DNA of 64,000 nucleotides from Escherichia coli (GCF_024700885.2 NZ_CP117016.1); one strand, 5' to 3'; positions 8,743 through 38,514 are shown, counted from the stretch's first letter. The notes: generated from the letters alone by a model not told the origin. Numbers and translations are program-made.

Positions 8743-8744
8743 AA

Positions 8745-11349: not shown

Positions 11350-11404
11350 GGTGATGCTGCCAACTTACTGATTTAGTGTATGATGGTGTTTTTGAGGTGC
11401 TCCA

Positions 11405-12102: not shown

Positions 12103-12118
12103 GTTGGAGTCATTACCG

Positions 12119-12274: not shown

Positions 12275-12293
12275 TCACCAGGCGGATATAAAC

Positions 12294-13010: not shown

Positions 13011-13022
13011 AGTGAAGAAATC

Positions 13023-13886: not shown

Positions 13887-13888
13887 GC

Positions 13889-14812: not shown

Positions 14813-14850
14813 ATGCTGAATCTTTACGCATTTCTCAAACCCTGAAATCA

Positions 14851-14866
14851 CTGTATACTTTACCAG
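14851..14866 (+). promoter_or_regulatory. LexA (SOS) box of dinB
   Basis: CTGTATACTTTACCAG = CTG-N10-CAG, 17 nt upstream of the dinB ATG. Confidence 0.9.
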
Positions 14867-14882
14867 TGTTGAGAGGTGAGCA

Positions 14883-15938: not shown

Positions 15939-15989
15939 TGTATACTATTATGTCTATTCTGGTGTGCATTATTATGAGGGGATCACTGT

Positions 15990-16283
15990 ATGCATCGAAT
16001 TCTCGCTGAAAAATCGGTCAATATCACTGAGTTACGTAAAAACCCAGCTAAATACTTTATTGATCAACCGGTTGCGGTTCTTTCTAATAATCGCCCCGCA
16101 GGATATCTCTTAAGTGCCAGCGCATTCGAAGCGTTAATGGACATGCTTGCTGAACAAGAGGAGAAAAAACTGGTTAAGGCGCGCTTCCGTCCGAGTGCCG
16201 CAAGATTAGAGGAAATTACACGCCGCGCTGAACAATATCTTAATGATATGACGGATGATGATTTCAATGACTTTAAGGAATAA
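15990..16283 (+). CDS. yafN: YafN antitoxin (Phd/YefM family)
   Basis: 97 aa MHRILAEKSVNITELRKNPAKYF... Confidence 0.93.
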   Translation: MHRILAEKSVNITELRKNPAKYFIDQPVAVLSNNRPAGYLLSASAFEALMDMLAEQEEKKLVKARFRPSAARLEEITRRAEQYLNDMTDDDFNDFKE

Positions 16284-25837: not shown

Positions 25838-25913
25838 GCCGATATAGCTCAGTTGGTAGAGCAGCGCATTCGTAATGCGAAGGTCGTAGGTTCGACTCCT
25901 ATTATCGGCACCA
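25838..25913 (+). tRNA. thrW: tRNA-Thr (anticodon CGT)
   Basis: 76 nt GCCGATATAGCTCAGTTGGTAGAGCAGCGCATTCGTAATGCGAAGGTCGTAGGTTCGACTCCTATTATCGGCACCA: acceptor stem pairs, T-loop GGTTCGA, encoded CCA. Confidence 0.95.
25897..25913 (+). repeat. attL core (3' end of thrW)
   Basis: TCCTATTATCGGCACCA, repeated with one G missing at 38138-38153. Confidence 0.8.
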
Positions 25914-26077
25914 TCACCTAGTTTTCCCAAGTCAACCCACATCAACAAAATCATTTAAAAACATATATATTACGTTGTTTTCATACGTTTGAGGTCAACC
26001 CTTGTCTCTTGAAATCAACACGCGGTTGGGGGCACAATCAGGGGCATGTTCTGTTCGGTCTAGGAAATGTGCCCCCA

Positions 26078-27268
26078 ATGATGCTGAATGCCCGCAAGGT
26101 TGAAGCTGCGAAAGGAAAAGAGAAGAGCTACAAGCTGTTTGATGGAGGTGGCCTATATCTTCAGGTCGAACCTAATGGCTCGCGTTACTGGCGTATGAAA
26201 TACCGTTTTGCTGGTAAAGAGAAACGATTGTCCTTTGGTGTTTATCCAACAGTCACACTTGCTGATGCCAGACAAAAACGAGAAGACGCGAAGAAACTAC
26301 TCGCAGCAGGTGAAGATCCCGGCGAAGTCAAAAAAGCCAAAAAGCAGGCTTTAAATGCAGCGATTGAGACACTTAACCCATTCAGAGAAGTGGCGTTAGA
26401 GTGGCACAAAATGAAATCACCCAAATGGTCTGAGGGCTATGCTTCCGACATCATTGAGGCATTCGAGAAAGACATTTTCCCGCATATTGGGCACAGACCT
26501 ATAGCTGATATTCAGCCCCTTGAACTGCTTGAAGTTCTGAGATTGATAGAAGCTCGAGGCGCTATGGAGAAAGCGAAGAAAGTCCGTCAGCGATGCGGTG
26601 AAGTTTTTCGCTATGCCATCGTAACGGGTAGGGCAATCTACAATCCGGCACCGGATCTTGCCAGTGCGATGCAAGGACATGAAGCAGTCCACTATCCATT
26701 CCTCAAAGCCAACGAACTACCGGAGTTCTTTAATGCCCTTAATTCTTATTCAGGAAGTCCAATTGTATTGTTGGGGGCGCATTTACTTATCCTGACAGGT
26801 CTACGAACTGGAGAACTACGAGCAGGTGAGTGGCGAGAGGTGGATTTTGATAATGCGGTGTGGGAGATCCCAAAAGAACGTATGAAAATGCGTAGGAGCC
26901 ATATTGTCCCGTTGTCAAAACAAGCATTATCCCATCTCAAAAGTTTGAAAGAACTAACTGGGAACTACCCGCTGATGTTCCCTGGACGCAACGATCCTAG
27001 CAAATTTATGAGTGAAGCAAGCATTAATCAGGTGTTTAAACGTATTGGATATGCAGGGCGTGTTACGGGGCATGGTTTCAGGCATACGATGAGTACAATC
27101 CTACATGAGAAAGGATTTAACAGCGCTTGGATTGAAACCCAGCTTGCTCATTCGGACAAAAACTCTATTCGTGGAATTTATAACCATGCCCAATATCTCG
27201 AAGGGAGAAGAGAAATGATGCAATGGTATGCTAATTATTTATCTGAGCTAATTGGTACTCATAAATGA
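26078..27268 (+). CDS. int: Tyrosine recombinase, P4-type integrase
   Basis: ORF 26009-27268 (TTG); likely ATG 26078: MMLNARKVEAAKGKEKSYKLFDGGGLYLQVEPNGSRYWRMKYRFAGKEKRLSFGVYP (P4-int N-terminal arm domain); catalytic HGFRHT...H..R..Y region near the C-terminus. Confidence 0.9.
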   Translation: MMLNARKVEAAKGKEKSYKLFDGGGLYLQVEPNGSRYWRMKYRFAGKEKRLSFGVYPTVTLADARQKREDAKKLLAAGEDPGEVKKAKKQALNAAIETLNPFREVALEWHKMKSPKWSEGYASDIIEAFEKDIFPHIGHRPIADIQPLELLEVLRLIEARGAMEKAKKVRQRCGEVFRYAIVTGRAIYNPAPDLASAMQGHEAVHYPFLKANELPEFFNALNSYSGSPIVLLGAHLLILTGLRTGELRAGEWREVDFDNAVWEIPKERMKMRRSHIVPLSKQALSHLKSLKELTGNYPLMFPGRNDPSKFMSEASINQVFKRIGYAGRVTGHGFRHTMSTILHEKGFNSAWIETQLAHSDKNSIRGIYNHAQYLEGRREMMQWYANYLSELIGTHK

Positions 27269-28089
27269 ATATTTTAAAAATTAATAATACTGATTCTCTG
27301 CTCAGAGATTACTACCAGTTGGATGAAGCTTCAGAAAAAATTGGTTGTAGTGAAAAGGATATACTCTGGTTTGCCAGAGAACGAGATGTAGAGCTATGCA
27401 TGGAATTCCATGATGATGAGTATGATGTTTCATGTGGTTTGAAGATTGATGGTCAAATGGATGAGTTCTTATCTAATCTGAAATATTTACCACGAGATAG
27501 AAATGGCAATATTATGTTGTCAGACTTAAGTTCTATAAGAATCCCTGATGAAGATAATTTAATTGATAAAAATGGTTTTATTCGATGTTTCATATCCGGT
27601 TTATGGGCTGTTGATTATGAATATAAAGATCTGTTAGTTAAGCATGAGGGGCAACCGGATTCCTGGCCTATTCATTTTCTACTGGCGGGTACGCCTAATA
27701 TAAATTGTAAGGTAATTCTTTATGTAAATTATGATGAAAAAGAAAATTATTATCTTTTTGAGGTTTTGTGGATTACAAAGGTACAGATTCAAAAATTCAT
27801 TGATATAGTCTTATGCGAACAAAAGCGGATAAAAAACGCCAATAAATATAAATCACAATCTGAGGCGCAAAAACAAAAACATGCTGTTCCTCGAGCTGAA
27901 ATACTCATGGCTATTATTTCGCTCTATCATCGTGATATGAGGCTAAGAAGAGAGAGTCCAGCAGCGATAGCTGATTATCTTTTTCAACATGCCAGTGAGT
28001 TCTGGCCTAAGACCGGAGAACCGCCTTTGAGCTATGATACTGTTGTTAGTTTGCTACGTAGTTGCATGAAAAACACTAAGTTTAACTAA
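27265..28089 (+). CDS. Hypothetical protein, translationally coupled to int (ATGA overlap), AT-rich
   Basis: 274-aa ORF; no family recognised by eye; possible N-terminal HTH (LDEASEKIGCSEKDILWFARE). Confidence 0.6.
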   Translation: MNILKINNTDSLLRDYYQLDEASEKIGCSEKDILWFARERDVELCMEFHDDEYDVSCGLKIDGQMDEFLSNLKYLPRDRNGNIMLSDLSSIRIPDEDNLIDKNGFIRCFISGLWAVDYEYKDLLVKHEGQPDSWPIHFLLAGTPNINCKVILYVNYDEKENYYLFEVLWITKVQIQKFIDIVLCEQKRIKNANKYKSQSEAQKQKHAVPRAEILMAIISLYHRDMRLRRESPAAIADYLFQHASEFWPKTGEPPLSYDTVVSLLRSCMKNTKFN

Positions 28090-28214
28090 ATATTAACAAT
28101 TATTGTGGCTAATGATTTTGGATTTTTTTCATTAGTCACATTTTTCTCATTTATAACCTATGTTTTAATTTTCCGTGTTGAAGCCAATAGACTTAGATAA
28201 ACGGAGAATGATGA

Positions 28215-28421
28215 ATGTTATCTAAACATGATAATACTACTTTGCAACGACCTTCAATGGATTCTCTGATCGATATGAAGTTTATTACTTCCGATTGTTT
28301 ATTAAGTGATAAATGGATTTATCGATTGATTTCTCTGAATCGCTTTCCAAAACCTATAAAAATAGGTCGGATGTCACGATGGCGCGCTGCTGATTATTAT
28401 AAGTGGCGAGATGGGTTTTAA
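28215..28421 (+). CDS. alpA: AlpA-family transcriptional regulator / excisionase-like protein
   Basis: 68 aa; SDKWIYRLISLNRFPKPIKIGRMSRWRAADYYKW matches the AlpA/Vis HTH pattern (..iyrli..g.FPkPikiG.rs.W...ev..W). Confidence 0.75.
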   Translation: MLSKHDNTTLQRPSMDSLIDMKFITSDCLLSDKWIYRLISLNRFPKPIKIGRMSRWRAADYYKWRDGF

Positions 28422-28537
28422 GAAAACTCAGGTCAACATTTTGAGGGAATGAGAAATAAGGCAAGAGCAATTAATAAAGGGAATAGATTATCACCTACTC
28501 CCTAAGCCTTAATTGATAGTTAGTAATATTTAACTGA

Positions 28538-28711
28538 TTAGCCTTTAGGGTCAATCCCGCGTGATTGGAGTTCTTTGCGTAAAATTCTTTTAATCCAAGT
28601 TGCCAACGCGCTATCTCCATCTTTGCGCATTTCGTTTTCGAGTTGCAACCTAAAATCGTCGGTAAGACGCATTTGGAATGGTGGAGAACGTTTCTCTTGT
28701 GGTGTTGACAT
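28538..28711 (-). CDS. Small ribbon-helix-helix (Arc/MetJ-like) DNA-binding protein, candidate satellite repressor
   Basis: 57-aa ORF below the ORF-track cutoff, translated by hand: MSTPQEKRSPPFQMRLTDDFRLQLENEMRKDGDSALATWIKRILRKELQSRGIDPKG; beta-strand FQMRL plus two helices; its start codon lies inside the operator repeat. Confidence 0.6.
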   Translation of the reverse strand: MSTPQEKRSPPFQMRLTDDFRLQLENEMRKDGDSALATWIKRILRKELQSRGIDPKG

Positions 28712-28751
28712 GGTAATTACCCTAGAATATGATGACTACATGGTAATTACC
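28705..28751 (+). promoter_or_regulatory. Early rightward promoter (TTGACA-17-TATGAT) bracketed by two ACATGGTAATTACC operator repeats
   Basis: TTGACA 28705-28710, TATGAT 28728-28733; 14-bp direct repeats at 28708-28721 and 28738-28751, each with the perfect palindrome GGTAATTACC. Confidence 0.65.
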
Positions 28752-28842
28752 ATTGTAAGTATAGTTCGCTTGTAAAAGCAATGCCCGATTGTGCGGGAAC
28801 ACAAATCGGGCATTTAACCAACCGTTATAAGAGGTAACGAAG

Positions 28843-29019
28843 ATGGCTAAACAGAAGTGTACTTGGTTATTTGCGGCGATCAACCGCAGTCAACGCAATG
28901 CCCGTCCTGTGATGTTAAGGATCACCGCAGATAACGAGCGGTCAGCGCGGCGCAGACTTGCCCCGGACTATGTACTGAGCTTTGCCGGGCGCATTCCCTG
29001 CGGAGGTGAACATGCGTAA
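28843..29019 (+). CDS. Icd-like host cell-division inhibitor family small protein
   Basis: 58-aa ORF translated by hand: MAKQKCTWLFAAINRSQRNARPVMLRITADNERSARRRLAPDYVLSFAGRIPCGGEHA; resembles remembered Icd-like proteins of P4-type elements (..ARP..L.v.A..E..ARR.La....LSFAaRlPv). Confidence 0.6.
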   Translation: MAKQKCTWLFAAINRSQRNARPVMLRITADNERSARRRLAPDYVLSFAGRIPCGGEHA

Positions 29020-29371
29020 TTATCCGCACCCCGGCGAACGCTGGCAGCATGAACGTGGCTGGACGGTCACGATTATCCGATTAATAGAAGCATCGCCCTC
29101 TGTGGCACTGGTTAATCCTGAATTCAGCTGTGAAGTGCTGATACGTCATGACAGCGACAACCAGCTTTCTTCCTGCCCTCTGGCATGGTTTGAACAGCGG
29201 TATACGCGCCTGTTTGATGTACCGCTCTTTAAGCCTGCACCAGCTCCTGCAGGCGGTAGTGGTTCCGGCCCGCTGACACTGCATCCGTCTGTGCTATTTA
29301 TCCGCTGGCGGGAGCGTAGCATATGGCGTTCTGCTGAGCCTGACGACGGTCACTATTCAAAGTTTCTCTGA
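29012..29371 (+). CDS. Hypothetical protein (satellite early operon)
   Basis: ORF 28982-29371; ATG 29012 overlaps the stop of the preceding gene (ATGCGTAA). Confidence 0.55.
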   Translation: MRNYPHPGERWQHERGWTVTIIRLIEASPSVALVNPEFSCEVLIRHDSDNQLSSCPLAWFEQRYTRLFDVPLFKPAPAPAGGSGSGPLTLHPSVLFIRWRERSIWRSAEPDDGHYSKFL

Positions 29372-29402
29372 CAAAATACCGCTGAAAACGGAGTAATCCA
29401 CG

Positions 29403-29687
29403 ATGAATATTTCAAACGGGCACAACGGTGCTCAGGGCCACACTTTGCCTGAAAAACACAATACCGGTGCTTTTGCCTATGGGTTGTCAGAGGACAGTTT
29501 CGGAAAGCTGACCCGCGCAAGAAATGCCTGCGACATGCTCCAGCTTCTCTTTTCTGAATACCCGTCTCAGGCCGGAGCACTGGACGCTGGCTGTGCGCAT
29601 GGTGTCGCCGCGCTGATGGAGTACCTGCTGGCAGATTTGACGGATATTGCACACAGCTGCGCACTGATTGAAGGAGGTGCCAGATGA
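29403..29687 (+). CDS. Hypothetical protein (satellite early operon)
   Basis: 94-aa ORF, same strand and GC style as neighbours; ATGA overlap with the next ORF. Confidence 0.55.
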   Translation: MNISNGHNGAQGHTLPEKHNTGAFAYGLSEDSFGKLTRARNACDMLQLLFSEYPSQAGALDAGCAHGVAALMEYLLADLTDIAHSCALIEGGAR

Positions 29688-30067
29688 ACCAGCCGCAGGT
29701 TTCCATTTTCCCGGCAGAAATGACCACCGCGCTTTACCGGCGGGCTATTGCTTCAGCATGGCGGCAGAAAATGCTGAACGAAACTGGCAGTGATCAGTAT
29801 GGTCCGCACAGCCTGACGGTGGAGCGTATTGAAATGGCCATTGCGCTGCATATCGAGTGCGTACTGATTAACGAGTACGGCGAAGTGCAGGGCGCCGCTG
29901 CCGCGCTGGCACTGCTGACTGACATGCTGGAGCCGTCACTGCTGACCGCGCCGCCGGTACTGACCGCGCGCGGCTGTGAAGTGATGGCGGAGATGTACCG
30001 CACGCTTCCGGCGGCCTTTGATGACTTCTGCAGTACCGGTGTGACGTTGTATGAGGGGGAAGTATGA
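29684..30067 (+). CDS. Hypothetical protein (satellite early operon)
   Basis: 127-aa ORF, ATGA-coupled on both sides. Confidence 0.55.
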   Translation: MNQPQVSIFPAEMTTALYRRAIASAWRQKMLNETGSDQYGPHSLTVERIEMAIALHIECVLINEYGEVQGAAAALALLTDMLEPSLLTAPPVLTARGCEVMAEMYRTLPAAFDDFCSTGVTLYEGEV

Positions 30068-32736
30068 CAATACAGACGGTTACGCAGATTTCAGCCGCCG
30101 CACGGGGGAAATGGCCCGTTATTCTGCAGATGCTGCGTATTGATGTACCTGAAAACGGCAGGCACGGTCCCTGCCCGAAATGTGGGGGCAAGGATCGTTT
30201 TCGCCTTGATGACCTTGACGGGCGCGGGACGTGGATCTGCAGCCAGTGTGGCAATGGTGACGGTCTGGATCTGGTTAAGCTCGTAACCGGTTACAGCGTC
30301 AGAAAGGCTGCGCAGGAGGTGGCGCAGGTGCTTAATGTGCCGAATATGCAGGAACTGCCTGTTAAGCCTGCCAGACAAAAAGCCCCTAAACGCGACATGG
30401 GTCTTACCGTGGCGGCGCTGATGAAAGAGAGCCACACGGGAGAAAGCGCCTATCTGACAGGAAAAGGGTTCGCCGGATACCCGGCCTCTCTGACCGGAAG
30501 CGTGCAGCATATCAGCGGTAAGGATTTCCCTGCCGGTTCCCTGCTGTTACCACTCACGACCAACACCGGAGCCGTGACCGGTGCACAGCTTATCGCCCCG
30601 ACGGGTGAAAAAAGCATACTGCCCGGCAGCACGATGAAAGGCGCGTTTGTGTCGCTCAGCCCGTTACCGTCTGAACCACCGGTACAGGTGGTGATTACCG
30701 AAGGTTACGCTACGGCGCTGACGGTAAGTCAGCTCACTGCCGGATGCGTAGTGGCTGCCATATCTGCGGGCAACCTGCCCAATGTGGCGCAGTCGCTGCG
30801 GGCACGCTGGCCTGAGGTAAAAATTATCATCGCCGGTGATAACGATTTTCAGGACGGAGATGAGAATCCCGGCAGAGCCTTTGCTGAACGGGCGGCAAAA
30901 GCTGTTGGCGGCTGGATGACGCTGCCACCAGGAGAGATTAAGGCTGACTGGAATGACTTTCATCGGGAGCACGGTATTACCCGTGCCCGTGAAGCCTTTC
31001 GCAACGGTCTGGTACTGTGCGGGGAAGGCCGCACGCAACTGCCGCACGGGTTCCGTCTTACCCAGGAATATCTCTGGTATGAAAAGCAGGTACAGCGCAA
31101 CGGTGAGACGGAGATCCAGAACGTCAAAATATGCAGCCCGCTGCGCGTGACGGCAATCACCTGCGATGCCGATGGCGGTAACTTCGGACGACTGCTGGAA
31201 TGGGAAGATACGTGGGGTGAGTGTCGCCGCTGGGCGATGCCGATGGAAATGCTGAGCGGCAGTGGTGAGGAACTGCGCCGGGTACTGCTGGTTAACGGGC
31301 TGTCTTATATCAGCACCACCGGTGAGGCACGCGCACGCCTGATGGAATATATCTCACTGTGTAAACCGGAACGCCGCGTGACCTGCGTCAGTCGTACTGG
31401 CTGGCATGGTCAGGTTTACGTCCTGCAGGATGAGGTCAGCGGTGAAGGTGCAGAGGGTGTCATTCTCCAGACCACTTCCGTGCAGGGGCGTGATTTCCGC
31501 GTGTCGGGCACAACAGAGGAATGGCGGGAGCATGTATCCCGCTACTGTACCGGCAACTCCCGCGTGGCATTTGCTGTCAGCCTGGCCTTTGCTGCACCAC
31601 TGTTACGGCTGGTTGGTATGGACGGCGGCGGCTACCACCTCAAAGGGGAATCGACAGACGGTAAGACCACCACCATGAAAGCGGCAACCTCCGTCTGCGG
31701 CGGGCCTGACTACTGGCAGACATGGCGGGCCACCGGCAACGCGCTGGAGGGATGCGCCAGCCGCCGCAACGATGCCGCCATGATGCTTGATGAGATCCGG
31801 GAAGTTGACGGACGCGAGGCAGGCAATATCGCCTACATGCTGGCAAACGGTCAGGGCAAGGGCCGTGCCGGTACGGACGGTGAGCTGCGTACCCGTAAGC
31901 AGTGGCGCCTGTTGTTCTTTTCAACTGGCGAGTTGTCTCTGACCGAACATGCGGCAAAGGCCGGTGAGCGTACTTTTGCCGGGATGGAAGTCAGGATGAT
32001 CCAGATCCCCAGCGATTCCGGGAAGTTTGGCGTTTTTGAGGAGCTGCACGGCTTCGACAGCGGCAAGGCTCTGGCAGAGCATCTTGAATGGGCCACGTCC
32101 TGCTACTACGGTTCGCCGTTCCGGGAGTGGCTGAAAGCACTGACCGCTGATCTTAACGGACTAACGGCACAGGCAAAATCGCTGATGAAGGAATATGCTG
32201 CCGCCCTGACTCCGAAAGATGCAGGCAATCAGGTGGGCCGGGCTGTGAACCGCTTTGCTCTGGTGGCGATGGCAGGTGAACTGGCAACCCGTCTGGGTAT
32301 CACCGGCTGGCCTGAGGGTGAAGCACTGCGGGCAACCCGCGTCTGCCTGAACGCATGGCTGAAAGATCGCGGGCACACCGCCAATCAGGAAGATATCGCC
32401 GCACTGGAGCAGGTTCGCAGTTTCTTTACCGCGAATCAGTACAGCCGCTTTGCAGACTGGTATGACGAGCGCAACCGCCCCGGCAATATGGTGGGCTGGC
32501 GCAGGGTGGAGAAAGGCAGTACCGCGCAGGGCACGGAAGCTGTCACTACGTTCTATGTCATGCCGTCCGGCTGGAAAGAAATCTGCAGGGGATTTGACCC
32601 GCGCAAGGTGGCGCGTCTGTGCGCAGATCGTGGATACCTGCTGCCCTCCACAGATGGCAAACTCCAGACAACCATTCGCCCGCCAGAGATGAATCCCCGC
32701 AGGCTCTATGTCTTCAACAGCGAGGTGCCTGGTTAA
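30064..32736 (+). CDS. P4 alpha-type bifunctional DNA primase / replicative helicase
   Basis: 890 aa; N-terminal Zn ribbon CPKCGGKDRFRLDD...CSQCG, Toprim-like acidic motif IIIAGDNDFQDGDENPG, helicase Walker A GESTDGKTT. Confidence 0.88.
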   Translation: MTIQTVTQISAAARGKWPVILQMLRIDVPENGRHGPCPKCGGKDRFRLDDLDGRGTWICSQCGNGDGLDLVKLVTGYSVRKAAQEVAQVLNVPNMQELPVKPARQKAPKRDMGLTVAALMKESHTGESAYLTGKGFAGYPASLTGSVQHISGKDFPAGSLLLPLTTNTGAVTGAQLIAPTGEKSILPGSTMKGAFVSLSPLPSEPPVQVVITEGYATALTVSQLTAGCVVAAISAGNLPNVAQSLRARWPEVKIIIAGDNDFQDGDENPGRAFAERAAKAVGGWMTLPPGEIKADWNDFHREHGITRAREAFRNGLVLCGEGRTQLPHGFRLTQEYLWYEKQVQRNGETEIQNVKICSPLRVTAITCDADGGNFGRLLEWEDTWGECRRWAMPMEMLSGSGEELRRVLLVNGLSYISTTGEARARLMEYISLCKPERRVTCVSRTGWHGQVYVLQDEVSGEGAEGVILQTTSVQGRDFRVSGTTEEWREHVSRYCTGNSRVAFAVSLAFAAPLLRLVGMDGGGYHLKGESTDGKTTTMKAATSVCGGPDYWQTWRATGNALEGCASRRNDAAMMLDEIREVDGREAGNIAYMLANGQGKGRAGTDGELRTRKQWRLLFFSTGELSLTEHAAKAGERTFAGMEVRMIQIPSDSGKFGVFEELHGFDSGKALAEHLEWATSCYYGSPFREWLKALTADLNGLTAQAKSLMKEYAAALTPKDAGNQVGRAVNRFALVAMAGELATRLGITGWPEGEALRATRVCLNAWLKDRGHTANQEDIAALEQVRSFFTANQYSRFADWYDERNRPGNMVGWRRVEKGSTAQGTEAVTTFYVMPSGWKEICRGFDPRKVARLCADRGYLLPSTDGKLQTTIRPPEMNPRRLYVFNSEVPG

Positions 32737-32770
32737 GGCTTTGCGTGAGTCTTATTTATTAAGGGTAACA

Positions 32771-32958
32771 GGTGAAACAGGTGGAACAACCGTATTTTAC
32801 AGGGCTGAACCTGTTCCACCTTCTGAAATAGTGAGGTGGAACAGATGTAACGCCAGCCAATCCGCTGTTCCACCTTGTTACCCGCGATGTTCCACCGGTG
32901 CAGTGTATATAAATGCCTTATAAAACAAAGCCGTAACACATGTTTCACCTGTTCCACC
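32771..32958. repeat. Origin-type iteron cluster: 8 copies of GGTGGAACA/TGTTCCACC around an AT-rich core
   Basis: Forward copies at 32771 (variant GGTGAAACA), 32780, 32835; reverse copies at 32812, 32866, 32888, 32941 (variant TGTTTCACC), 32950; AT-rich tatataaatgccttataaaacaaag at about 32905-32929. Confidence 0.75.
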
Positions 32959-33046
32959 GCATCAGGGACATAAAGCAGACTGAAACAGAGGGCATTTTTA
33001 TCTGGCTGGCTTTCATAGCCACGTCTGAATAACCGCAAGCGCCCGT

Positions 33047-33102
33047 TGTGCCAGCCACCACACACTGAACACCGATAGTGTGCTTGTGTCAGCCACGACA
33101 CA
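33047..33102 (+). promoter_or_regulatory. Ogr/Delta-dependent late promoter (two TGT-N12-ACA sites) upstream of sid
   Basis: TGTGCCAGCCACCACACA (33047-33064) and TGTGTCAGCCACGACACA (33085-33102), centres 38 bp apart; sid ATG at 33137 preceded by AGGAG. Confidence 0.65.
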
Positions 33103-33136
33103 ATTGACGTAACGAACCAACCCGACAGGAGAAGTC

Positions 33137-33880
33137 ATGAACAATACCGCAGTAAATAACAACCTTTCCACTTTTCCGGCTGTAACGCAGCGGGCACTGG
33201 AAACCATGAACACAGCCAGAAACGCATGGCTTGAAGCACGTCGTCAGCAGAAAGCGGCAGCGGATAATATTGCGACAATCCGCCAGCGTCGCGCTGAAAT
33301 GGAAGCCACGACGAACACACTGAATGAGGAGTGGCGCACGCTGTTTCGTGAAAGTCAGGGCGTGATCTCAAAGGAAATGAAAAAACTGCGCACGGAAATT
33401 GCGCTGGGACGAGAAACGCTTGAGGATTTTGATGAGCTGCTGGCGGCTCAGGAAAGCGAAAATGCACTTTTGCCGCAGAAAGCTGCAGAATTAGCCGGAA
33501 AGTATATCCACGCGCATAACATTCTTGTGGATATTCGCGCAAAACAAATCTGGGAGGATTTTATGCAGTCGCATGGAAAAGTGCTTATTCAGACGCTGAG
33601 CCTGCTTAAATCCACAATGGGCCGGGAAGCCAGTGCCGTTGTGGGTGTGGTGAATTCAGTTAATGACCCGGACACAGTGCTGAAAGACTTTATTCATAAA
33701 TATATCACCAGACCGGCTCTGGCTAACGATGCGATGCCTGAGCAGGACCCGGTGTTTAAACTGGCGGGAGTTGCCCCGGATTATGCGGCGCGTCTGGATT
33801 TCAGTAATCAACTCTCTCCGGCAGCTATGCATAAAATTAAGGTTCGTCAGGAACTTGCTGAGAAGGAGAAAGCAGTATGA
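33137..33880 (+). CDS. sid: Sid-like capsid size-determination (external scaffold) protein
   Basis: 247 aa; segment EEWRTLFRESQGVISKEMKKLRTEIALGRETLEDFDEL parallels remembered P4 Sid (DDWRTAFRAAGGVLSDELKQRHIE...); size and position fit. Confidence 0.7.
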   Translation: MNNTAVNNNLSTFPAVTQRALETMNTARNAWLEARRQQKAAADNIATIRQRRAEMEATTNTLNEEWRTLFRESQGVISKEMKKLRTEIALGRETLEDFDELLAAQESENALLPQKAAELAGKYIHAHNILVDIRAKQIWEDFMQSHGKVLIQTLSLLKSTMGREASAVVGVVNSVNDPDTVLKDFIHKYITRPALANDAMPEQDPVFKLAGVAPDYAARLDFSNQLSPAAMHKIKVRQELAEKEKAV

Positions 33881-34428
33881 CGGCCCGAGGCACGCCTGAC
33901 CAGGCACTTACCAGTTTTCGGAATGCCCGTATTCTGTGGGCCGGACATAATGAGAGCCGAAAAGCCGTTGAACAACAGATAACATCTCTCCTCGCTGCCA
34001 CAGAAAAACCAGCAGATTATGCCCGACAGCTCGAATTACTGCGGGAACGTCTGGATGTGCTGAAATGGCAAATTAACTGTGCTGCGCGCGAATGCATTTA
34101 CTCGCAGCATTTACTGATGGAGGCCTGCACAGAAGCCGCTCTCAGCAATTTTATGCAGGCGAATGGGGCAGCCCTGACATCTGCACTGGCTCCGTTCCTG
34201 AAGGGGCGCGGAGGGGTTGACGTTGCGTCCCGTATATTACGCAGTGCTCTGGTTCGCCAGCTGGCAATAACACCGCCTGAATTTGCCGGGGATTATCGTG
34301 AGATCCTGGATGAATCCGGTTTGATGCTTGACCCCGGGATGATTCGTGATTGCCAGGGTTCTTACACCCCGGCACAACATCTGCGTTTTCAGCAACGCCT
34401 GAATGACATTAACGATATACAGGAGTGA
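33877..34428 (+). CDS. psu: Psu-like polarity-suppression / capsid decoration protein
   Basis: 183 aa; FMQANGAALTSALAPFLKG parallels remembered P4 Psu FMQQHGTALAAALAPELMG; ATGA-coupled to sid. Confidence 0.7.
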   Translation: MTARGTPDQALTSFRNARILWAGHNESRKAVEQQITSLLAATEKPADYARQLELLRERLDVLKWQINCAARECIYSQHLLMEACTEAALSNFMQANGAALTSALAPFLKGRGGVDVASRILRSALVRQLAITPPEFAGDYREILDESGLMLDPGMIRDCQGSYTPAQHLRFQQRLNDINDIQE

Positions 34429-34433
34429 TATTA

Positions 34434-34706
34434 ATGGCACTTAAATGTCCGGAATGCGGTACAGTTGCACACGCCAGAACAGCAGCCTATGAAGCTCCGT
34501 CAGTTAAACGCTCGTGGTATCAGTGCCAGAATCTGGAATGTTCCTGCACATTTACGGCACTGGAGAGTGTGGATAAGATAATCATGAAACCCCGGCGCAA
34601 TGAACAGGAACCAGACAAATCACAAACCCCGGTAAAACAACAGCAAACGCTCAATCGCTATGGCTCCGCGTCAAAACTGTCAAGCCGTCAGCAGATTCCT
34701 GTCTGA
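34434..34706 (+). CDS. Ogr/Delta-family zinc-finger late transcription activator
   Basis: MALKCPECGTVAHARTAAYEAPSVKRSWYQCQNLECSCTFTALESV: CxxC-N22-CxxxxC Ogr/Delta finger; AGGAG RBS at 34421-34425. Confidence 0.85.
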   Translation: MALKCPECGTVAHARTAAYEAPSVKRSWYQCQNLECSCTFTALESVDKIIMKPRRNEQEPDKSQTPVKQQQTLNRYGSASKLSSRQQIPV

Positions 34707-34727
34707 TTAGAAAAAAAATGCCCACGT

Positions 34728-34754
34728 AATCCCGGTCGAGTACTGGGATTTTTA
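34728..34754 (+). terminator. Rho-independent terminator of the sid-psu-delta late operon
   Basis: aatcccgg tcgagta ctgggatt + ttt (8-bp stem with one G-U, T-run). Confidence 0.65.
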
Positions 34755-34916
34755 ACACCTTACCCCTGGCTGGCCTGAGAGCGCATGAGTGCATGTCTAT
34801 GGCGCATGAAAACGCATGAGTCTCATGCACCATTTTTGACGCGAAAGCCCTTGTGTGGTGGCTTCTGAGACGATTAATGAGGTGCATGAAAACCAGTCTG
34901 TTAAGTGAAGCGGGAA

Positions 34917-34935
34917 GGCGTGCGGGGCTGCGCAC
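34917..34935. other. Candidate P2/P4-type cos (cohesive end) sequence
   Basis: GGCGTGCGGGGCTGCGCAC matches the remembered 19-nt P2/P4 cohesive end GGCGAGGCGGGGAAAGCAC at 12 of 19 positions (both ends conserved); location after psu/delta, as in P4. Confidence 0.35.
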
Positions 34936-35260
34936 GTAGCAGGGTTAAATGGTCAATTCTGGCGCAGCTCACGACATTAAGTCAGCCTCAATAGATGTAC
35001 GTGTTGGTAGGGGTAATTCGCTACTTTTTTGTATCCTAAATTGTATGGTTTGATGCTGATCGTTTCTTCACCGCACCTGCAGAGATATCAATTCAATGTG
35101 GACAAAAATGAGTCTGGCTCTTTCCGTATCACTAGAATTGCCAGTATTGTTAGGGATGATGCCCATATCATACGGAGGGAGCCAGTGGGGGCGATTGCGC
35201 GTGGAAAGTGCTTTGGATTTATTCATCGGTTTTATGATTCTACATAAGGAGCAAAGGTAC

Positions 35261-35289
35261 TTGTATCGTATGAAAAAAAATAGTATAGA
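35261..35289 (+). promoter_or_regulatory. Candidate retron promoter (TTGTAT-17-TATAGA)
   Basis: -35 at 35261-35266, -10 at 35284-35289; places the transcription start at the first base of the a1 repeat (~35295). Confidence 0.45.
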
Positions 35290-35294
35290 TATAA

Positions 35295-35457
35295 TGCTCC
35301 TTACGCGTTATGGCATAGTTATATGCTAGTCGGGCGATTAGCCAGACTCGAACTTATTGAACGGTATTAGGGTTGCGCTTGGTGTGCCTCTGGATTGCAC
35401 TCCATGCTGTCGCGCAATCCAGAGGCACACCAAGCGCTTCCTTTAGGTAAGTGAGTA
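35295..35457 (+). ncRNA. Retron msr-msd non-coding RNA (predicted)
   Basis: a1 TGCTCCTTAC (35295-35304) pairs with a2 GTAAGTGAGTA (35447-35457); G35305 directly 3' of a1 in CTTAC-G-CG context; two short msr hairpins (35311-35328, 35329-35347); 24-bp perfect msd hairpin 35375-35398/35414-35437; immediately upstream of effector and RT genes. Confidence 0.7.
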
Positions 35458-35529
35458 AAAACAGCACCTTCTTCGATTTATGATGAAGGTGCTGCAATCG
35501 TAACGTTTTTTGTATACACGGATAGTATA

Positions 35530-36498
35530 GTGGCTGAGACATACGAAGATAAAGTTGCTAATCATGTTTCAGAGTGGGAAATGGAAAATTTCCGTGTATG
35601 TTATGATGATCAGGTTATTTTCTTATGTGGTGCGGAAGTACTTCCTCAAGGAAGTGTTCAGACTTCAATGAGAGGGCATTTTTATCACTATTGCCTGAAT
35701 AAAAATAAAGATATAGCTGATAAAATAATTCTTGCCGAAAACTTCAAAAAATATCTTCAAAATAATCATTATCCAGACTTAATAACTTTTGAGCATGATG
35801 TTGCAAGTATATCTAGTTTAGTTGTTATTTTCTTGGAAAGCAGTGGTTCAATTGCTGAGTTAGGTGTTTTCTGTAATATTAGTGATGTCAATAAAAAATT
35901 ATTGATATTTGTTCCATCAGATGAAGTTGAAGGTGACAAGAAAGAGTCTTTCATTTACTTAGGGCCTTTATTGTTTTTAAAAGAAAAGGTCAATGAAAAA
36001 GCATTTAAGATTTATCCAAAACCCACTAATGGTTCTGATTACTCCGAGCATTTAGAGATTATGGCTGATGACTTGGCTGAACTATTACCTAGAAGTGGTA
36101 AGTTTGAAAGCTTCGATCCTGACAATTTAGGGCATATAGCTTTTCTTATATGCAGAATTGTGCATTTAGTAATGCCTATTAAGCTAAAGGAAATATTAAA
36201 TTGTTTAAAAATAATAGGTATCAATAAATATACTCTGACTGAGGTTGAAAGAATTTTGTTTTTATTGGAAACATTGGGTTTTATAAATATTTATCCGTAT
36301 GGCGATTTAAAATACTATTATTCAATGCAAGCCAGGCAAAATCTTAAATTAGGGAAAAATAAAACCGGATTCACAATCGATGAGGCTGGTATTTTTACTG
36401 ATATTAGTGTTTTTATCAATGACAATAAATTATGTAGTGATAAAAAAAGACGGCTGGTTTTGAAAGGCATTAAGGAGAAGCATAATGGACATAATTAA
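35530..36498 (+). CDS. Retron effector: nucleoside deoxyribosyltransferase-like N-domain plus C-terminal winged-helix-like domain (St85/Ec73-type layout)
   Basis: 322-aa ORF (GTG start; ATG at 35581 is an alternative); Rossmann-like VIFLCGAE and FLESSGSIAELGVF (candidate catalytic Glu) typical of NDT-like retron effectors; overlaps the RT start by 14 nt. Confidence 0.7.
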   Translation: MAETYEDKVANHVSEWEMENFRVCYDDQVIFLCGAEVLPQGSVQTSMRGHFYHYCLNKNKDIADKIILAENFKKYLQNNHYPDLITFEHDVASISSLVVIFLESSGSIAELGVFCNISDVNKKLLIFVPSDEVEGDKKESFIYLGPLLFLKEKVNEKAFKIYPKPTNGSDYSEHLEIMADDLAELLPRSGKFESFDPDNLGHIAFLICRIVHLVMPIKLKEILNCLKIIGINKYTLTEVERILFLLETLGFINIYPYGDLKYYYSMQARQNLKLGKNKTGFTIDEAGIFTDISVFINDNKLCSDKKRRLVLKGIKEKHNGHN

Positions 36499-37417
36499 AA
36501 AAATCGCAGATGAAACTCTAATGCCGGTATCAAAAGTATCTGCTTTTATATTTACAGCCCCATATAGATATAAAGTATATCCCATCCCCAAAAGGAATGG
36601 TGGGTTTAGGGAGATTGCTCAACCGTCAAGGGCATTAAAGTTTATGCAAAGGATTGTTATTGCTGAACTAGAGAAAGTACTTAAGGTTCATGAAAACGCA
36701 TATGCTTATGTCAAAGGACGTAGTATAAAAGATAATGTGGAAAAGCATCAAAGAAACTCTTATATTTTGAAAGTTGATTTCTGCGACTTTTTTAATAGCA
36801 TAAACCCTTACGACCTTGAGTTATGTTTAAAAAACAATGGGTTAGACTCATTGTTAAGCTCACAAGAATTATTGAATAAACTTTTTTTCTATAAGAAAAG
36901 TAAAAGAGGTGCTTTATCAATGAGCATCGGGGCACCTAGTTCTCCATTTTTGTCAAATGCGATTATGTATAAGTTTGATTCAGTCATTAGTGATATGTGT
37001 TCAAATAAAAATATTACTTATACAAGATATGCTGATGATCTTACATTTTCTACTAATGAAAAAGGTATTTTGTATGAATTCATACATGAAATAGATAAAG
37101 TTCTTGAGGAGATAGATAGTCCTAAATTAAAACTAAATGATAAGAAAACCATATTTGCATCTAAAAAATGCAATCGTCATATAACAGGAATTGTTATTAA
37201 TAACGAAGAAAAACTTTCAATTGGTAGAGATAAAAAACGTTACTTAAGTAGTTTAATTCATAAATTCTCGCTTAATGCACTTAATGAGGAAGGAGTTGAA
37301 CATTTAAAAGGGTATTTGGCGTATGTAAATAAAATTGAACCTTCATTCATTAGCAGAATGAAAAGGAAATATGGAGTCGAAGTTGTCAACTCCATAATCA
37401 CATTTAATCCATTATAA
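36485..37417 (+). CDS. ret: Retron-type reverse transcriptase
   Basis: 310 aa; RT motifs FREIAQPS, NAYAYVKGRSIKDN, KVDFCDFFNSI, IGAPSSPFLSN, catalytic YTRYADDLTFS and retron-typical ITGIVIN (VTG) motif; no maturase, endonuclease or other extra domains. Confidence 0.9.
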   Translation: MDIIKKIADETLMPVSKVSAFIFTAPYRYKVYPIPKRNGGFREIAQPSRALKFMQRIVIAELEKVLKVHENAYAYVKGRSIKDNVEKHQRNSYILKVDFCDFFNSINPYDLELCLKNNGLDSLLSSQELLNKLFFYKKSKRGALSMSIGAPSSPFLSNAIMYKFDSVISDMCSNKNITYTRYADDLTFSTNEKGILYEFIHEIDKVLEEIDSPKLKLNDKKTIFASKKCNRHITGIVINNEEKLSIGRDKKRYLSSLIHKFSLNALNEEGVEHLKGYLAYVNKIEPSFISRMKRKYGVEVVNSIITFNPL

Positions 37418-37894
37418 ATGTGAACTTATTATATTTATAATGGTTGTGCTTTTTTCTTGTACCTTAGGGGTGTAAAAGAATGTCATCATGAAGATAATTA
37501 AAAAATGAATGGCAATAAGAGTAATAGGTAACATTTTTTCAATATCACTTAAATGGCGATGCCTTTTTTGTGTAATAACTTCCTCTTCTCTTTTGAAAGG
37601 AGTTATACCTATCTTGACCTCCATCTCCTGAATTACTGTAAACTTAGCAGCATTAATTCTTTTATAGGAAGTAATTAGATTTATCCAATAGATATTAATT
37701 ACGACTCCAGCGAGAGAGATTAAGATTACCCAAATAGGCTGTATTGTTGGCTTTAAAGAAAAATATCCAACAAGCGGTAAAATAGAAGAGTTTAAGGCTA
37801 ATAAAAATGTATTTGACTTAAGTCTTCGATCACTTATTCTATCCGCCATCTCAACGCATGTTTTATATATTTCTATGACTTTATCATCCGTCAC
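37412..37894 (-). CDS. Small predicted 3-TM membrane protein of unknown function (candidate defence/abortive-infection effector)
   Basis: 160 aa; amphipathic N-terminal helix IEIYKTCVEMADRISDRRLKSNTF, then hydrophobic segments FLLALNSSILPLVGYFSL, IWVILISLAGVVINIYWINLI, MLPITLIAIHFLIIFMMTFFY; AT-rich; stop overlaps the RT stop. Confidence 0.65.
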   Translation of the reverse strand: MTDDKVIEIYKTCVEMADRISDRRLKSNTFLLALNSSILPLVGYFSLKPTIQPIWVILISLAGVVINIYWINLITSYKRINAAKFTVIQEMEVKIGITPFKREEEVITQKRHRHLSDIEKMLPITLIAIHFLIIFMMTFFYTPKVQEKSTTIINIISSHL

Positions 37895-38137
37895 TAATAG
37901 TATCCTTATAAATTTCTGAGTTGTTCAAATAAATGTTATCATATATTTTTATCAACGTAATATGTATTTTTACGTATTTTTAACTGTGAGAGATACATAG
38001 TGATTGTTGGGTGCATGTACAATCCTTGATACTTAACAATGAAAGCGTAGTTGTGGGGGGGGGGCATATTTGGGGGCATTACTATTTAATCTTTCTTGAT
38101 TTTTATTATAAAACAACTGGTTGTATTGATGTTTTGT

Positions 38138-38153
38138 TCCTATTATCGCACCA
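38138..38153 (+). repeat. attR core (pseudo-thrW 3' end)
   Basis: TCCTATTATCGCACCA = attL 25897-25913 minus one G; next base T also shared. Confidence 0.75.
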
Positions 38154-38280
38154 TTTAAATCAAGTAGTTACCTCACATTCAATTACACCACATTTTCCTC
38201 CTGTGCCGTATTTGTGCCATTGTAACCCTGGCAATTCATCAAAATACTGTTCTGACATCAGGCAGTGCAGGTGCAGACAT

Positions 38281-38514
38281 TTAAGCCAATTGCTGCCGCC
38301 ATTCCTTGACGTGGTCAATCAGGGCGCGGAGCTTTGGTGCAATATTGCGACGCTGTGGGAAATACAGATAGAAGCCCGGAAATTGTGGAAGAAAGTCATC
38401 AAGCAGCGATACAAGCTTACCGCTTTCAATATATGGCCTGAAAGTTTCCTGAGTGGCAATTGTTATGCCTGCGCCGGCAAGAGCCAGCCTCAACATCAGA
38501 CGCAGATCATTCTG
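38281..38514 (-). pseudogene. LysR-family regulator, C-terminal ~77 codons only
   Basis: QNDLRLMLRLALAGAGITIATQETFRPYIESGKLVSLLDDFLPQFPGFYLYFPQRRNIAPKLRALIDHVKEW: LysR effector-domain C-terminus; in-frame stop immediately upstream, no HTH part. Confidence 0.7.

What the first reader, a model, noticed from the sequence alone, without database searches (positions are those of the whole stretch)
25897..38153. P4-like satellite at thrW with defined att repeats and non-P4 gene order
Seen: TCCTATTATCGGCACCA (thrW 3' end, 25897-25913) recurs as TCCTATTATCGCACCA at 38138-38153. Between them lie int, alpA-like, RHH, Icd-like, alpha-type primase-helicase, iterons, sid-, psu- and delta-like genes. Established: K-12 carries the unrelated, much larger CP4-6 prophage at thrW, and P4-type elements are ~10-13 kb and depend on P2-like helpers. 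In P4 the alpha operon and the sid operon are divergent and the late order is sid-delta-psu. Here the early and late operons are co-linear on one strand and the order is sid-psu-delta.
Basis: partly seen in the sequence, partly recalled or inferred. Interest (0 to 1): 0.6.

Follow-up and report, generated by a model that had tools for sequence, protein, structure and literature searches.

The report
P4-like phage satellite carrying a retron

Summary
thrW ends at 25913, and its last 17 nt recur at 38138-38153 with one G missing. 948 of 5,426 complete E. coli genomes have the two flanks joined exactly at these points, so the junctions are correct and the element is 12,240 bp.

Profile and pairwise tests support int, alpA/vis, icd/kil, cnr, the alpha primase domain, sid, psu and a single-domain delta. 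I also found:
- TGTTYCACC iterons
- a Psid promoter with P4's exact two-dyad geometry
- a cos block shared with P2-like phages
- P4-type att arm repeats
- a complete type II-A (St85-family) retron plus an 8xMP membrane gene in the cos-adjacent cargo slot

The sid-psu-delta order is a published variant (about 20% of P4-like elements) and also occurs in a classical divergent element in EDL933. What differs is the backbone:
- int-alpA-early operon-replicase-late operon all on one strand
- a Toprim-DUF927 replicase replacing P4's D5-type helicase half
- no epsilon
- a small divergent ORF with palindromic operators over the early promoter

This backbone occurs in 324 E. coli genomes and in six other genera. 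It is a real but ordinary satellite, of modest interest.

The parts
25838..25913 (+). thrW, tRNA-Thr(CGU); the integration target
   Evidence: ARAGORN; Rfam tRNA, 71.8 bits
25897..25913 (+). attL core, the 3' end of thrW (TCCTATTATCGGCACCA)
   Evidence: empty-site alignment
26028..26078 (.). int-proximal arm-type repeats: GGGGCAC, GGGGCAT direct, plus an inverted TGTGCCCCCAA overlapping the int ATG
   Evidence: Same words and geometry as P4's annotated attP arm repeats. This is the only stretch with nucleotide similarity to P4.
26078..27268 (+). P4-type tyrosine integrase
   Evidence: Pfam Arm-DNA-bind_3, Phage_int_M and Phage_integrase; 43% identical to P4 Int, E 3e-112; RefSeq start
27265..28089 (+). 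274-aa ORF of unknown function; 34% GC; occupies a variable slot between int and alpA
   Evidence: No hit in Pfam, PHROGs, NCBIfam, PADLOC or PDB. Relatives have other ORFs in this slot. GC.
28215..28421 (+). AlpA/Vis-type excisionase-regulator
   Evidence: Pfam Phage_AlpA, 21.6 bits against a cut-off of 21; phrog_66; weak match to P4 orf88
28538..28711 (-). 57-aa divergent ORF; candidate small repressor (RHH-like pattern, unproven)
   Evidence: Annotated CDS. The AF2 monomer shows an N-terminal coil plus two helices. No family or fold hit. It co-varies with the neighbouring palindromes in relatives.
28705..28751 (+). Candidate early promoter TTGACA-17-TATGAT, overlapped by two GGTAATTACC palindromes (28712-28721, 28742-28751)
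   Evidence: Best promoter-like site in the element, 11 of 12; repeats
28780..28814 (+). Conserved hairpin in the leader upstream of icd
   Evidence: kept through compensatory changes in 6 distinct relatives
28843..29019 (+). Icd-like protein, homologue of the P4 kil/'cI ORF' region
   Evidence: NCBIfam phage_ICD_like, 5.5e-24; phrog_1743; 54% identical to the P4 ORF
29012..29687 (+). Two small early ORFs (119 aa and 94 aa) in the position of P4 epsilon/orf151; not homologous to epsilon
   Evidence: phrog_30862 and phrog_14861, whereas P4 epsilon is phrog_10016; no BLAST match to epsilon
29684..30067 (+). DUF5375 protein, homologue of P4 orf106 (cnr)
   Evidence: Pfam DUF5375; 40% identical to P4 orf106
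30064..32736 (+). Replicase with Zn-ribbon, Toprim and DUF927 domains (890 aa)
   Evidence: Pfam. Residues 5-316 are 39% identical to the P4 alpha primase domain and the rest does not match. P4 alpha has D5_N, DUF5906 and Pox_D5 instead.
32771..32958 (.). Eight TGTTYCACC iterons; candidate origin (ori/crr equivalent)
   Evidence: the P4 type-1 repeat is TGTTCACC
33047..33102 (+). Psid-type late promoter with two TGT-N12-ACA dyads
   Evidence: The 38-bp spacing and the 90-nt distance to the sid ATG are the same as in P4.
33137..33880 (+). Sid homologue (capsid size determination)
   Evidence: phrog_6165, 1e-91, full length; this is also P4 Sid's family; 23% identical to P4 Sid
33877..34428 (+). 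Psu
   Evidence: Pfam Psu, 5e-43; 29% identical to P4 Psu
34434..34706 (+). Delta, a single Ogr/Delta zinc-finger domain
   Evidence: Pfam Ogr_Delta, 7e-16; matches each half of the two-domain P4 Delta
34788..34935 (+). cos region; candidate 19-nt cohesive end GGCGTGCGGGGCTGCGCAC at 34917-34935
   Evidence: About 70% identical to Peduoviridae phages. Same architecture as the P4 cos. Conserved in relatives, with divergence starting right after it.
35296..35486 (+). Retron non-coding RNA: msr 35296-35365, then an msd hairpin with a 24-bp stem
   Evidence: Rfam msr, 53.4 bits against gathering score 52; STnc400, 53 bits, below its gathering score of 80; fold z-score -10
35530..36498 (+). Retron type II-A NDT effector (St85 family)
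   Evidence: PADLOC NDT_II-A, 2e-79; NCBIfam STM3845_fam, 2e-66
36485..37417 (+). Retron reverse transcriptase
   Evidence: Pfam RVT_1; PADLOC RT_II-A, 7e-123
37412..37894 (-). 8xMP/RipA-family membrane protein; travels with the retron; role unknown
   Evidence: Pfam 8xMP, 1.5e-28; always found together with the retron
38055..38079 (+). Second arm: two GGGGCAT repeats, the first inside a G10 run
   Evidence: the sister element has G4 and G5 versions
38138..38153 (+). attR core (TCCTATTATC-GCACCA)

Best explanation
This is an integrated P4-like phage satellite of 12,240 bp that depends on a P2-like (Peduoviridae) helper. It belongs to a sublineage in which all modules read in one direction.

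Proposed mechanism:
1. Integration and excision. A P4-type integrase, using arm-type GGGGCAY repeats on both arms, recombines a core of about 17 nt with the 3' end of thrW. AlpA would assist excision.
2. Early control. A strong early promoter overlapped by two GGTAATTACC palindromes drives icd, two small ORFs, cnr and the replicase. The divergent 57-aa ORF is the likely operator-binding repressor.
3. Replication. The Toprim-DUF927 replicase would start replication at the TGTTYCACC iterons just downstream of its own gene.
4. Late expression. When a helper expresses its Ogr-type activator, or the satellite expresses Delta, the two TGT-N12-ACA dyads switch on sid-psu-delta.
5. Hijacking. Sid would redirect helper capsid assembly to small heads, and Psu would decorate them and inhibit Rho.
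6. Packaging. The helper terminase would cut the cos site just after delta.
7. Cargo. The slot between cos and attR holds a type II-A retron (msr-msd, NDT effector, RT) that protects the lysogen from other phages.

Shown here: the junctions, the homologies, the sequence elements and their conservation. Inferred: every activity, the helper's identity, and the repressor role of the 57-aa ORF.
For: - Junctions: empty site in 948 genomes, and 93/93 in AST215.
- Homology to P4 Int, Vis, Kil/Icd, Cnr, the alpha primase domain, Sid, Psu and Delta.
- The early operon is syntenic with P4's left operon: vis-kil-(epsilon slot)-cnr-alpha.
- Iterons resemble P4's.
- Psid dyads have the same spacing and the same distance to the sid ATG as in P4.
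- The cos block is shared with Peduoviridae phage 500465-1 and has P4-like cos architecture. It is conserved among relatives, which diverge immediately after it.
- The arm repeats match P4's annotated attP arm repeats, and the repeat words change with the integrase type in relatives.
- Retron: Rfam msr at gathering score, PADLOC RT_II-A 7e-123, NDT_II-A 2e-79.
- Sister elements carry DRT3 or other genes in the same slot.
- All ORFs are intact. The backbone is 96-100% conserved across three or more integrase types and seven genera, which argues for recent mobility.
- The size fits the roughly 12-kb limit of small capsids quoted in PMC9122126.
Against: - No epsilon homologue, so helper derepression as done by P4 is not supported.
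- No canonical P2/P4 cos 19-mer within 3 mismatches. The closest phage cos region is only about 70% identical, and no helper with the same 19-mer was found.
- attR lacks one G relative to attL, and it is shorter than in a sister element.
- The helicase and origin-binding half of the replicase is unrelated to P4 alpha.
- No P4-type CI RNA was detected.
- The repressor role of the 57-aa ORF has no homology support.
- No experiment shows excision, replication or packaging.
Confidence: 0.82

Rival explanations
1. The element is a cryptic, no longer mobilisable remnant of a satellite. It would be fixed at thrW and kept only because its retron cargo is useful to the host.
For: attR differs from attL by a 1-nt deletion, and it has lost 4 nt of tRNA match that a sister element keeps. 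There is no epsilon. No helper prophage lies in the window (one search shows ordinary chromosomal ORFs). The retron-carrying version is confined to 23 genomes, nearly all at the same site.
Against: All 15 ORFs are intact and several overlap as in translationally coupled operons. cos, the Psid dyads, the iterons and the arm repeats are all preserved. The same single-G attR occurs in independent relatives. A shared GCACCAT between attB and the inferred attP would still give a 7-bp overlap, so the G indel need not block recombination (inference). The backbone is nearly identical across genera, which implies recent transfer. An exact empty site with the same tRNA allele exists.
Confidence: 0.13
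2. The element is best seen as a hybrid: a PICI/CP4-57-type island backbone (int, alpA, divergent small regulator, DUF927 replicase, all co-linear) that captured the P4 hijacking cassette (Psid-sid-psu-delta-cos-cargo). Its regulation and helper sensing would then follow island logic (a protein repressor relieved by a helper factor), not P4 logic (CI RNA plus epsilon).
For: The co-linear int-alpA-replicase order, the divergent 57-aa ORF with operators over the early promoter, the DUF927 domain and the missing epsilon all differ from P4. The same late cassette is joined to a classical P4 backbone in EDL933, at 96% nucleotide identity at the 5' end of sid, which shows module exchange. PMC10085698 notes that P4-like elements score as Type C PICI through int, alpA and primase.
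Against: The early operon is itself P4-like in content and order: vis, kil/icd, cnr and the alpha primase domain. The integrase, arm repeats and att geometry are P4-like. No terS, capsid, Ppi or Rpp-type gene was found by Pfam or PHROGs. The repressor role is unproven.
Confidence: 0.25
3. The co-linear order is a strain-specific rearrangement or an assembly artefact.
For: None beyond its difference from P4.
Against: The element is identical in 22 complete genomes. The alpha-to-sid junction occurs in 324 genomes. The same layout is found with three or more integrase types and in Shigella, Enterobacter, Citrobacter, Pseudocitrobacter and Pantoea.
Confidence: 0.01

Closest known systems
Satellite phage P4 (NC_001609) and the P4-like satellite family (Moura de Sousa & Rocha, PMC8628076; PMC10085698)
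   Same: - Homologous proteins: P4-type Int with matching arm repeats and att geometry, Vis/AlpA, Kil/Icd, Cnr (orf106), the alpha primase domain, Sid, Psu and Delta.
- Psid has the identical two-dyad geometry.
- TGTTCACC-like iterons.
- cos immediately after the late operon, followed by a variable cargo slot.
- Size about 12 kb, integrated at a tRNA 3' end.
   Different: - The late cassette lies downstream of, and co-directional with, the replicase, not divergent from vis.
- int sits next to alpA and not next to the cargo.
- The cargo is bounded by cos and attR, not by psu and int.
- The replicase has DUF927 in place of D5_N, DUF5906 and Pox_D5.
- Delta has one domain, not two.
- There is no epsilon and no detected CI RNA.
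- There is a divergent 57-aa ORF with operators.
- There is a single iteron cluster in place of separate ori and crr.
P4-like element of E. coli O157:H7 EDL933 (L008)
   Same: The sid-psu-delta operon is near-identical (87-90% aa; 96% nt at the 5' end of sid), as is the cos block.
   Different: EDL933 has the classical divergent layout, a P4-type 777-aa alpha, int beyond the cargo, and different cargo.
Retronphage phiR73 (Inouye et al. 1991, cited in PMC9122126)
   Same: [quoted passage not shown]
   Different: A different retron (Ec73 versus a type II-A St85-family retron), a different target (selC versus thrW), and, from memory, a P4-type layout.
Retron Sen2/St85 and Eco1/Ec86 (type II-A)
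   Same: The RT, the NDT effector and msr match type II-A profiles, and the gene order ncRNA-effector-RT matches.
   Different: Here the retron is carried as satellite cargo and has a convergent 8xMP membrane gene next to it.

Membership tests
P4-like satellite (core set of PMC8628076: int, psu, delta, sid, alpA, epsilon, alpha) | Integrase | tested here: met
   43% identical to P4 Int, E 3e-112; Pfam domains
P4-like satellite | Psu | tested here: met
   Pfam Psu, 5e-43; 29% identical to P4 Psu
P4-like satellite | Delta (Ogr/Delta zinc finger) | tested here: met
   Pfam Ogr_Delta, 7e-16; single domain, versus two in P4
P4-like satellite | Sid | tested here: met
   Same PHROG as P4 Sid (phrog_6165, 1e-91, full length); 23% identity
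P4-like satellite | AlpA/Vis | tested here: met
   Pfam Phage_AlpA, just above the cut-off at 21.6 versus 21; phrog_66
P4-like satellite | Epsilon (helper derepression protein) | tested here: not met
   No BLAST or PHROG link between any ORF and P4 epsilon. The family definition tolerates one or two missing components (Types B and C).
P4-like satellite | Alpha primase-helicase | tested here: inconclusive
   The primase half is 39% identical. The helicase and origin-binding half is replaced by DUF927.
P4-like satellite | Prototypical core order int-psu-delta-sid-alpA-epsilon-alpha | tested here: not met
   The order here is int-alpA-alpha-sid-psu-delta. It is not among the variants listed in PMC8628076.
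P4-like satellite | cos related to that of P2-like helpers, next to the cargo hotspot | tested here: met
   Cleavage itself was not tested.
P4-like satellite | Activator-dependent late promoter (TGT-N12-ACA) | tested here: met
   Two dyads with the same spacing and position as in P4 Psid
P4-like satellite | Dependence on a P2-like helper for particles | not testable with these tools
   Needs infection or induction experiments
Retron type II-A (St85 family) | Retron RT | tested here: met
   PADLOC RT_II-A, 7e-123; RVT_1
Retron type II-A (St85 family) | NDT-type effector next to the RT | tested here: met
   PADLOC NDT_II-A, 2e-79; NCBIfam STM3845_fam, 2e-66 against a cut-off of 100 bits
Retron type II-A (St85 family) | msr-msd non-coding RNA upstream | tested here: met
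   Rfam msr, 53.4 bits against gathering score 52. The msd hairpin has a 24-bp stem, but its STnc400 match is below gathering score.
Retron type II-A (St85 family) | msDNA synthesis and anti-phage activity | not testable with these tools
   Experimental
PICI (phage-inducible chromosomal island) | Packaging or capsid-redirection genes of PICI type (terS, ppi, rpp, capsid morphogenesis) | tested here: not met
   No such Pfam or PHROG hit in any ORF. The redirection genes present are sid and psu.

The most novel reading that the evidence does not exclude
The window holds a member of a distinct, so far undescribed architectural subfamily of P4-like satellites. In it, the P4 hijacking cassette (Psid-sid-psu-delta-cos-cargo) is fused downstream of an int-alpA-repressor-DUF927 replicase backbone. 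Immunity would be protein-based (a small operator-binding repressor) and not CI-RNA-based. Helper sensing would work without epsilon. The defence cargo would sit between cos and attR, where published psu-to-int hotspot mining does not look.
Probability: 0.3. Interest if true: 0.5.

Novelty: new variant of a known kind. Interest (0 to 1): 0.33.

Why it matters
P4-like satellites are a major reservoir of anti-phage systems. This layout changes where the cargo sits: between cos and attR, with the integrase at the far end of the element. The pipeline of PMC9122126 looked for an integrase within 10 genes downstream of psu, so it would probably skip these elements, which occur in about 6% of complete E. 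coli genomes.

The lineage also offers a natural comparison for satellite biology. The same late cassette runs on two different early, replication and immunity backbones, one of which lacks epsilon and the D5-type helicase. That could show which P4 functions are really needed to exploit P2-like helpers. For genome annotation, it shows that the genes RefSeq calls 'septation initiation protein' or 'hypothetical protein' here are Sid homologues.

Tried and rejected
- Canonical P2/P4 cos 19-mer: absent within 3 mismatches. It was replaced by a related cos block found through phage similarity.
- Megablast of the whole element against the phage collection: no match.
- Exact-pattern scans of viral contigs for the cos 19-mer or a 15-mer: only satellites or chance hits, and no helper.
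- P4-type RNA immunity (seqA/seqB/seqC): a GCAATGCCCG repeat and its complement looked promising. In relatives the hairpin arms change while the 'seqC' copy inside icd does not, so that pairing is not supported. Only the hairpin itself is conserved.
- A delta-dependent promoter for int (dyad at 26003-26020): not conserved with other integrases, so probably chance.
- RHH fold for the 57-aa ORF: no sequence hit in the PDB, and no Foldseek hit for the monomer model.
- thrW T-stem allele (U-A in occupied genomes, G-C in most empty sites) as a sign that the element supplies the tRNA end: one empty site has the U-A allele, so I did not pursue it.
- Literature on 8xMP/RipA, on DUF927 in P4-like satellites, and on thrW satellites: nothing relevant.
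- Weak Rfam hits (symR, several microRNA families): below threshold and treated as chance.

Full report
**Observation.** ARAGORN finds a single tRNA in the window, tRNA-Thr(CGU), at 25838-25913. Its last 17 nt, TCCTATTATCGGCACCA, lie at 25897-25913. They recur at 38138-38153 as TCCTATTATCGCACCA, with one G missing. I joined 25913 to 38154 in silico and searched 5,426 complete E. coli genomes. 948 of them hold the joined sequence as one uninterrupted piece. Strain 118UI shows thrW followed directly by TTTAAATCAAG.... Strain AST215 matches a 93-nt junction probe 93/93 with the same thrW allele. The insert, from 25914 to 38153, is 12,240 bp.

**Gene content.** The ORFs and the RefSeq annotation of an identical copy give the following order, all on the plus strand unless stated:
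- int, 26078-27268
- a 274-aa ORF with no detectable family
- alpA
- a 57-aa ORF on the minus strand
- an Icd-like gene
- two small ORFs
- a DUF5375 gene
- an 890-aa replicase
- a 400-bp gap
- three overlapping genes, 33137-34706
- 580 bp of non-coding DNA
- three low-GC genes

Tests against P4 (L003) gave these results:

| Window gene | Result against P4 or profiles |
|---|---|
| Int | 43% identical to P4 Int |
| AlpA | weak match to P4 orf88/Vis |
| Icd-like | 54% identical to the P4 kil/'cI ORF'; NCBIfam 5.5e-24 |
| DUF5375 | 40% identical to P4 orf106 |
| Replicase, residues 5-316 | 39% identical to the alpha primase domain |
| 247-aa protein | same PHROG as P4 Sid (phrog_6165), full length, 1e-91; 23% identical |
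| Next gene | Psu; Pfam 5e-43 |
| Last late gene | a single Ogr/Delta domain that matches each half of P4's two-domain Delta |

The sid, psu and delta assignments are therefore supported by profile searches. Two points are weaker. No ORF is related to P4 epsilon. The C-terminal two thirds of the replicase is a DUF927 domain, whereas P4 alpha has D5_N, DUF5906 and Pox_D5 there.

- *Iterons.* Eight of the nine TGTTYCACC matches in the whole window lie in 32771-32958, just after the replicase gene (0.93 expected). P4's alpha-binding type-1 repeat is TGTTCACC.
- *Late promoter.* Two TGT-N12-ACA dyads lie at 33047 and 33085, 38 bp apart, with the first 90 nt before the sid ATG. P4 has dyads at 9493 and 9531, 38 bp apart, with the first 90 nt before its sid ATG. 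That TGT-N12-ACA is the Ogr/Delta target is my own knowledge of P2/P4 late promoters.
- *cos.* The canonical P2/P4 19-mer is absent. However, 34788-34927 is about 70% identical to a non-coding stretch of Peduoviridae phages. In phage 500465-1 that stretch ends in AAAGCGGGCA GGCGTGCGGGG...CGCGCGCAA. P4 reads AAAGCGGGCG|GGCGAGGCGGGGAAAGCAC|CGCGCGCAA across its ends. The window reads AAGCGGGAA GGCGTGCGGGGCTGCGCAC at 34908-34935. An alignment of the window with a DRT3-carrying sister, an argW-inserted relative, the classical EDL933 element and the phage shows this block conserved. All five sequences diverge right after the 19-mer.
- *att arms.* GGGGCAY occurs at 26029, 26041 and 26069 (inverted, overlapping the int ATG), and at 38061 and 38073. 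P4's annotated attP arm repeats use the same word in the same arrangement. Relatives with other integrases have other words in the same geometry.

**Cargo.** Rfam finds a retron msr at 35296-35365 at gathering score. It is followed by a hairpin with a 24-bp perfect stem that resembles STnc400. The next two genes match PADLOC NDT_II-A (2e-79) and RT_II-A (7e-123), and NCBIfam's St85-family effector model. This is a complete type II-A retron. A convergent 160-aa membrane protein of Pfam family 8xMP follows it. This 3.2-kb cargo occurs in only 23 genomes, always as a unit. Sister elements at thrW carry DRT3 instead. Relatives at a tRNA-Arg gene carry other genes in the slot. This behaviour matches the cos-adjacent defence hotspot described for P4-like satellites, where retrons were already noted (PMC9122126).

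**Gene order.** With int placed first, P4 as a prophage reads int-cII-(beta, gop)-cos-psu-delta-sid, then vis-kil-epsilon-orf151-cnr-alpha, with the late genes on the opposite strand. The window reads int-orf274-alpA-...-cnr-replicase-sid-psu-delta-cos-cargo, on one strand.

PMC8628076 reports that 77% of complete P4-like elements have P4's order and 20% have psu and delta swapped, with two rare variants besides. The sid-psu-delta order is therefore a known common variant. EDL933 carries an operon with that order (87-90% aa identity) in a classical divergent element with a P4-type alpha.

The position of the late cassette after the replicase is not among the listed variants, but it is not rare either:
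- The replicase-to-sid junction is present in 324 of 5,426 E. coli genomes.
- Every locus that shares this backbone has the same layout, with at least three integrase types.
- A scan of species-representative genomes found it in Shigella, Enterobacter, Citrobacter, Pseudocitrobacter and Pantoea, with 96-99% identical replicases. Psu is often absent there.

The late cassette is thus shared between two backbones, and the co-linear layout goes with the DUF927 replicase. The published surveys probably hold these elements as Type B or C variants. I could not verify that.

**Regulation (inference).** The best promoter-like site in the element is TTGACA-17-TATGAT at 28705-28733. It is overlapped by two copies of the palindrome GGTAATTACC, and it abuts the start of the divergent 57-aa ORF. 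In relatives where this ORF is only 54% identical, the palindromes differ as well. That pattern is what a repressor-operator pair would show. However, the protein has no family, PDB or fold match. Its model is only a coil plus two helices.

A hairpin in the leader (28780-28814) is kept through compensatory changes in six distinct relatives. Its role is unknown. A P4-like seqA/B/C pairing scheme is not supported. No CI-type RNA family was detected.

**Is it still mobile?** Arguments for:
- The ORFs are intact.
- All cis elements are conserved.
- The backbone is near-identical across genera.
- An exact empty site exists.

Arguments against:
- attR lacks one G.
- There is no epsilon.
- No helper was identified.

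The single-G attR recurs in independent relatives, while a Shigella copy has a perfect 18-nt repeat. attB and the inferred attP still share GCACCAT, which could serve as a 7-bp overlap. That is inference only.

**Verdict.** This is a genuine P4-like satellite with correctly defined ends. It is a member of a widespread co-linear, DUF927-replicase sublineage, and it carries a type II-A retron. It is a variant of a well-known kind. It is useful for annotation and for hotspot mining, but a specialist would not find it surprising.

Noticed in passing
L005 (E. coli elppa4) 1-16000; window 25868-25913: In five genomes the match to the element starts inside thrW (window 25868 or 25895). In the one examined, strain elppa4, a P22-like prophage sits between thrW and the satellite, leaving a 46-nt partial thrW copy in front of the satellite. 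In that genome thrW hosts a phage and a satellite in tandem.
   Followed up: partly
window 25888-25902 versus L002 1746-1760: Most empty-site genomes have a G-C pair in the thrW T stem (GGAGG...CCTCT). The window and other occupied genomes have U-A (GTAGG...CCTAT), a compensatory double change. One empty site (AST215) has U-A. I did not resolve whether integrating elements spread the allele.
   Followed up: partly
window 27265-28089: A 274-aa ORF at 34% GC lies between int and alpA, with no hit in any library. Relatives with other integrases have different ORFs in the same slot, which suggests a second variable cargo position.
   Followed up: partly
window 37412-37894 (-): An 8xMP/'RipA family octameric membrane protein' gene is convergent with the retron RT and overlaps its end. 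It is always found with this retron (23 genomes). PADLOC has no model for it, and I found no literature on its function.
   Followed up: partly
window 28780-28814: A leader hairpin upstream of icd is retained through compensatory base changes in six distinct relatives (U-A, C-G and A-U at one pair). It is a candidate regulatory RNA element of unknown role.
   Followed up: partly
window 38055-38064: A G10 run lies inside the first attR-side arm repeat. The sister element has G4 here. It could be a slippage-prone tract affecting integrase arm binding.
   Followed up: no
window 38281-38496 (-) and downstream: Directly after attR lies a truncated LysR-family pseudogene and a ykgR fragment. The same remnants follow thrW in empty-site genomes, so the truncation predates or is independent of this insertion.
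   Followed up: partly
L007, L062-L067: Many relatives of the co-linear lineage lack psu, with sid followed directly by delta. This fits the published observation that Psu-less P4-like variants are frequent.
   Followed up: partly
L035 (IMG/VR contig): This is a deletion variant of the thrW element that lacks orf94, cnr and the whole replicase (orf119 joined to sid). It is probably a defective copy.
   Followed up: no
L004 4501-4637 (Escherichia phage 500465-1): In this P2-like phage the cos-like block lies between a dinI-like gene and a TIR-domain gene, about 1.5 kb from the portal gene. The phage's own cargo hotspot therefore also begins right after cos.
   Followed up: partly
window 32771-32958 versus P4 4291-4590 and 9310-9413: The iteron word (TGTTYCACC) is almost the same as P4's (TGTTCACC), although the C-terminal half of the replicase, which binds the origin in P4, shows no sequence similarity. 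Either a similar DNA-binding fold is hidden there or the resemblance is coincidental.
   Followed up: no
RefSeq annotations under hits H73-H101: Sid homologues are variously annotated as 'septation initiation protein', 'hypothetical protein' or 'phage polarity suppression protein'. This is an annotation inconsistency.
   Followed up: no
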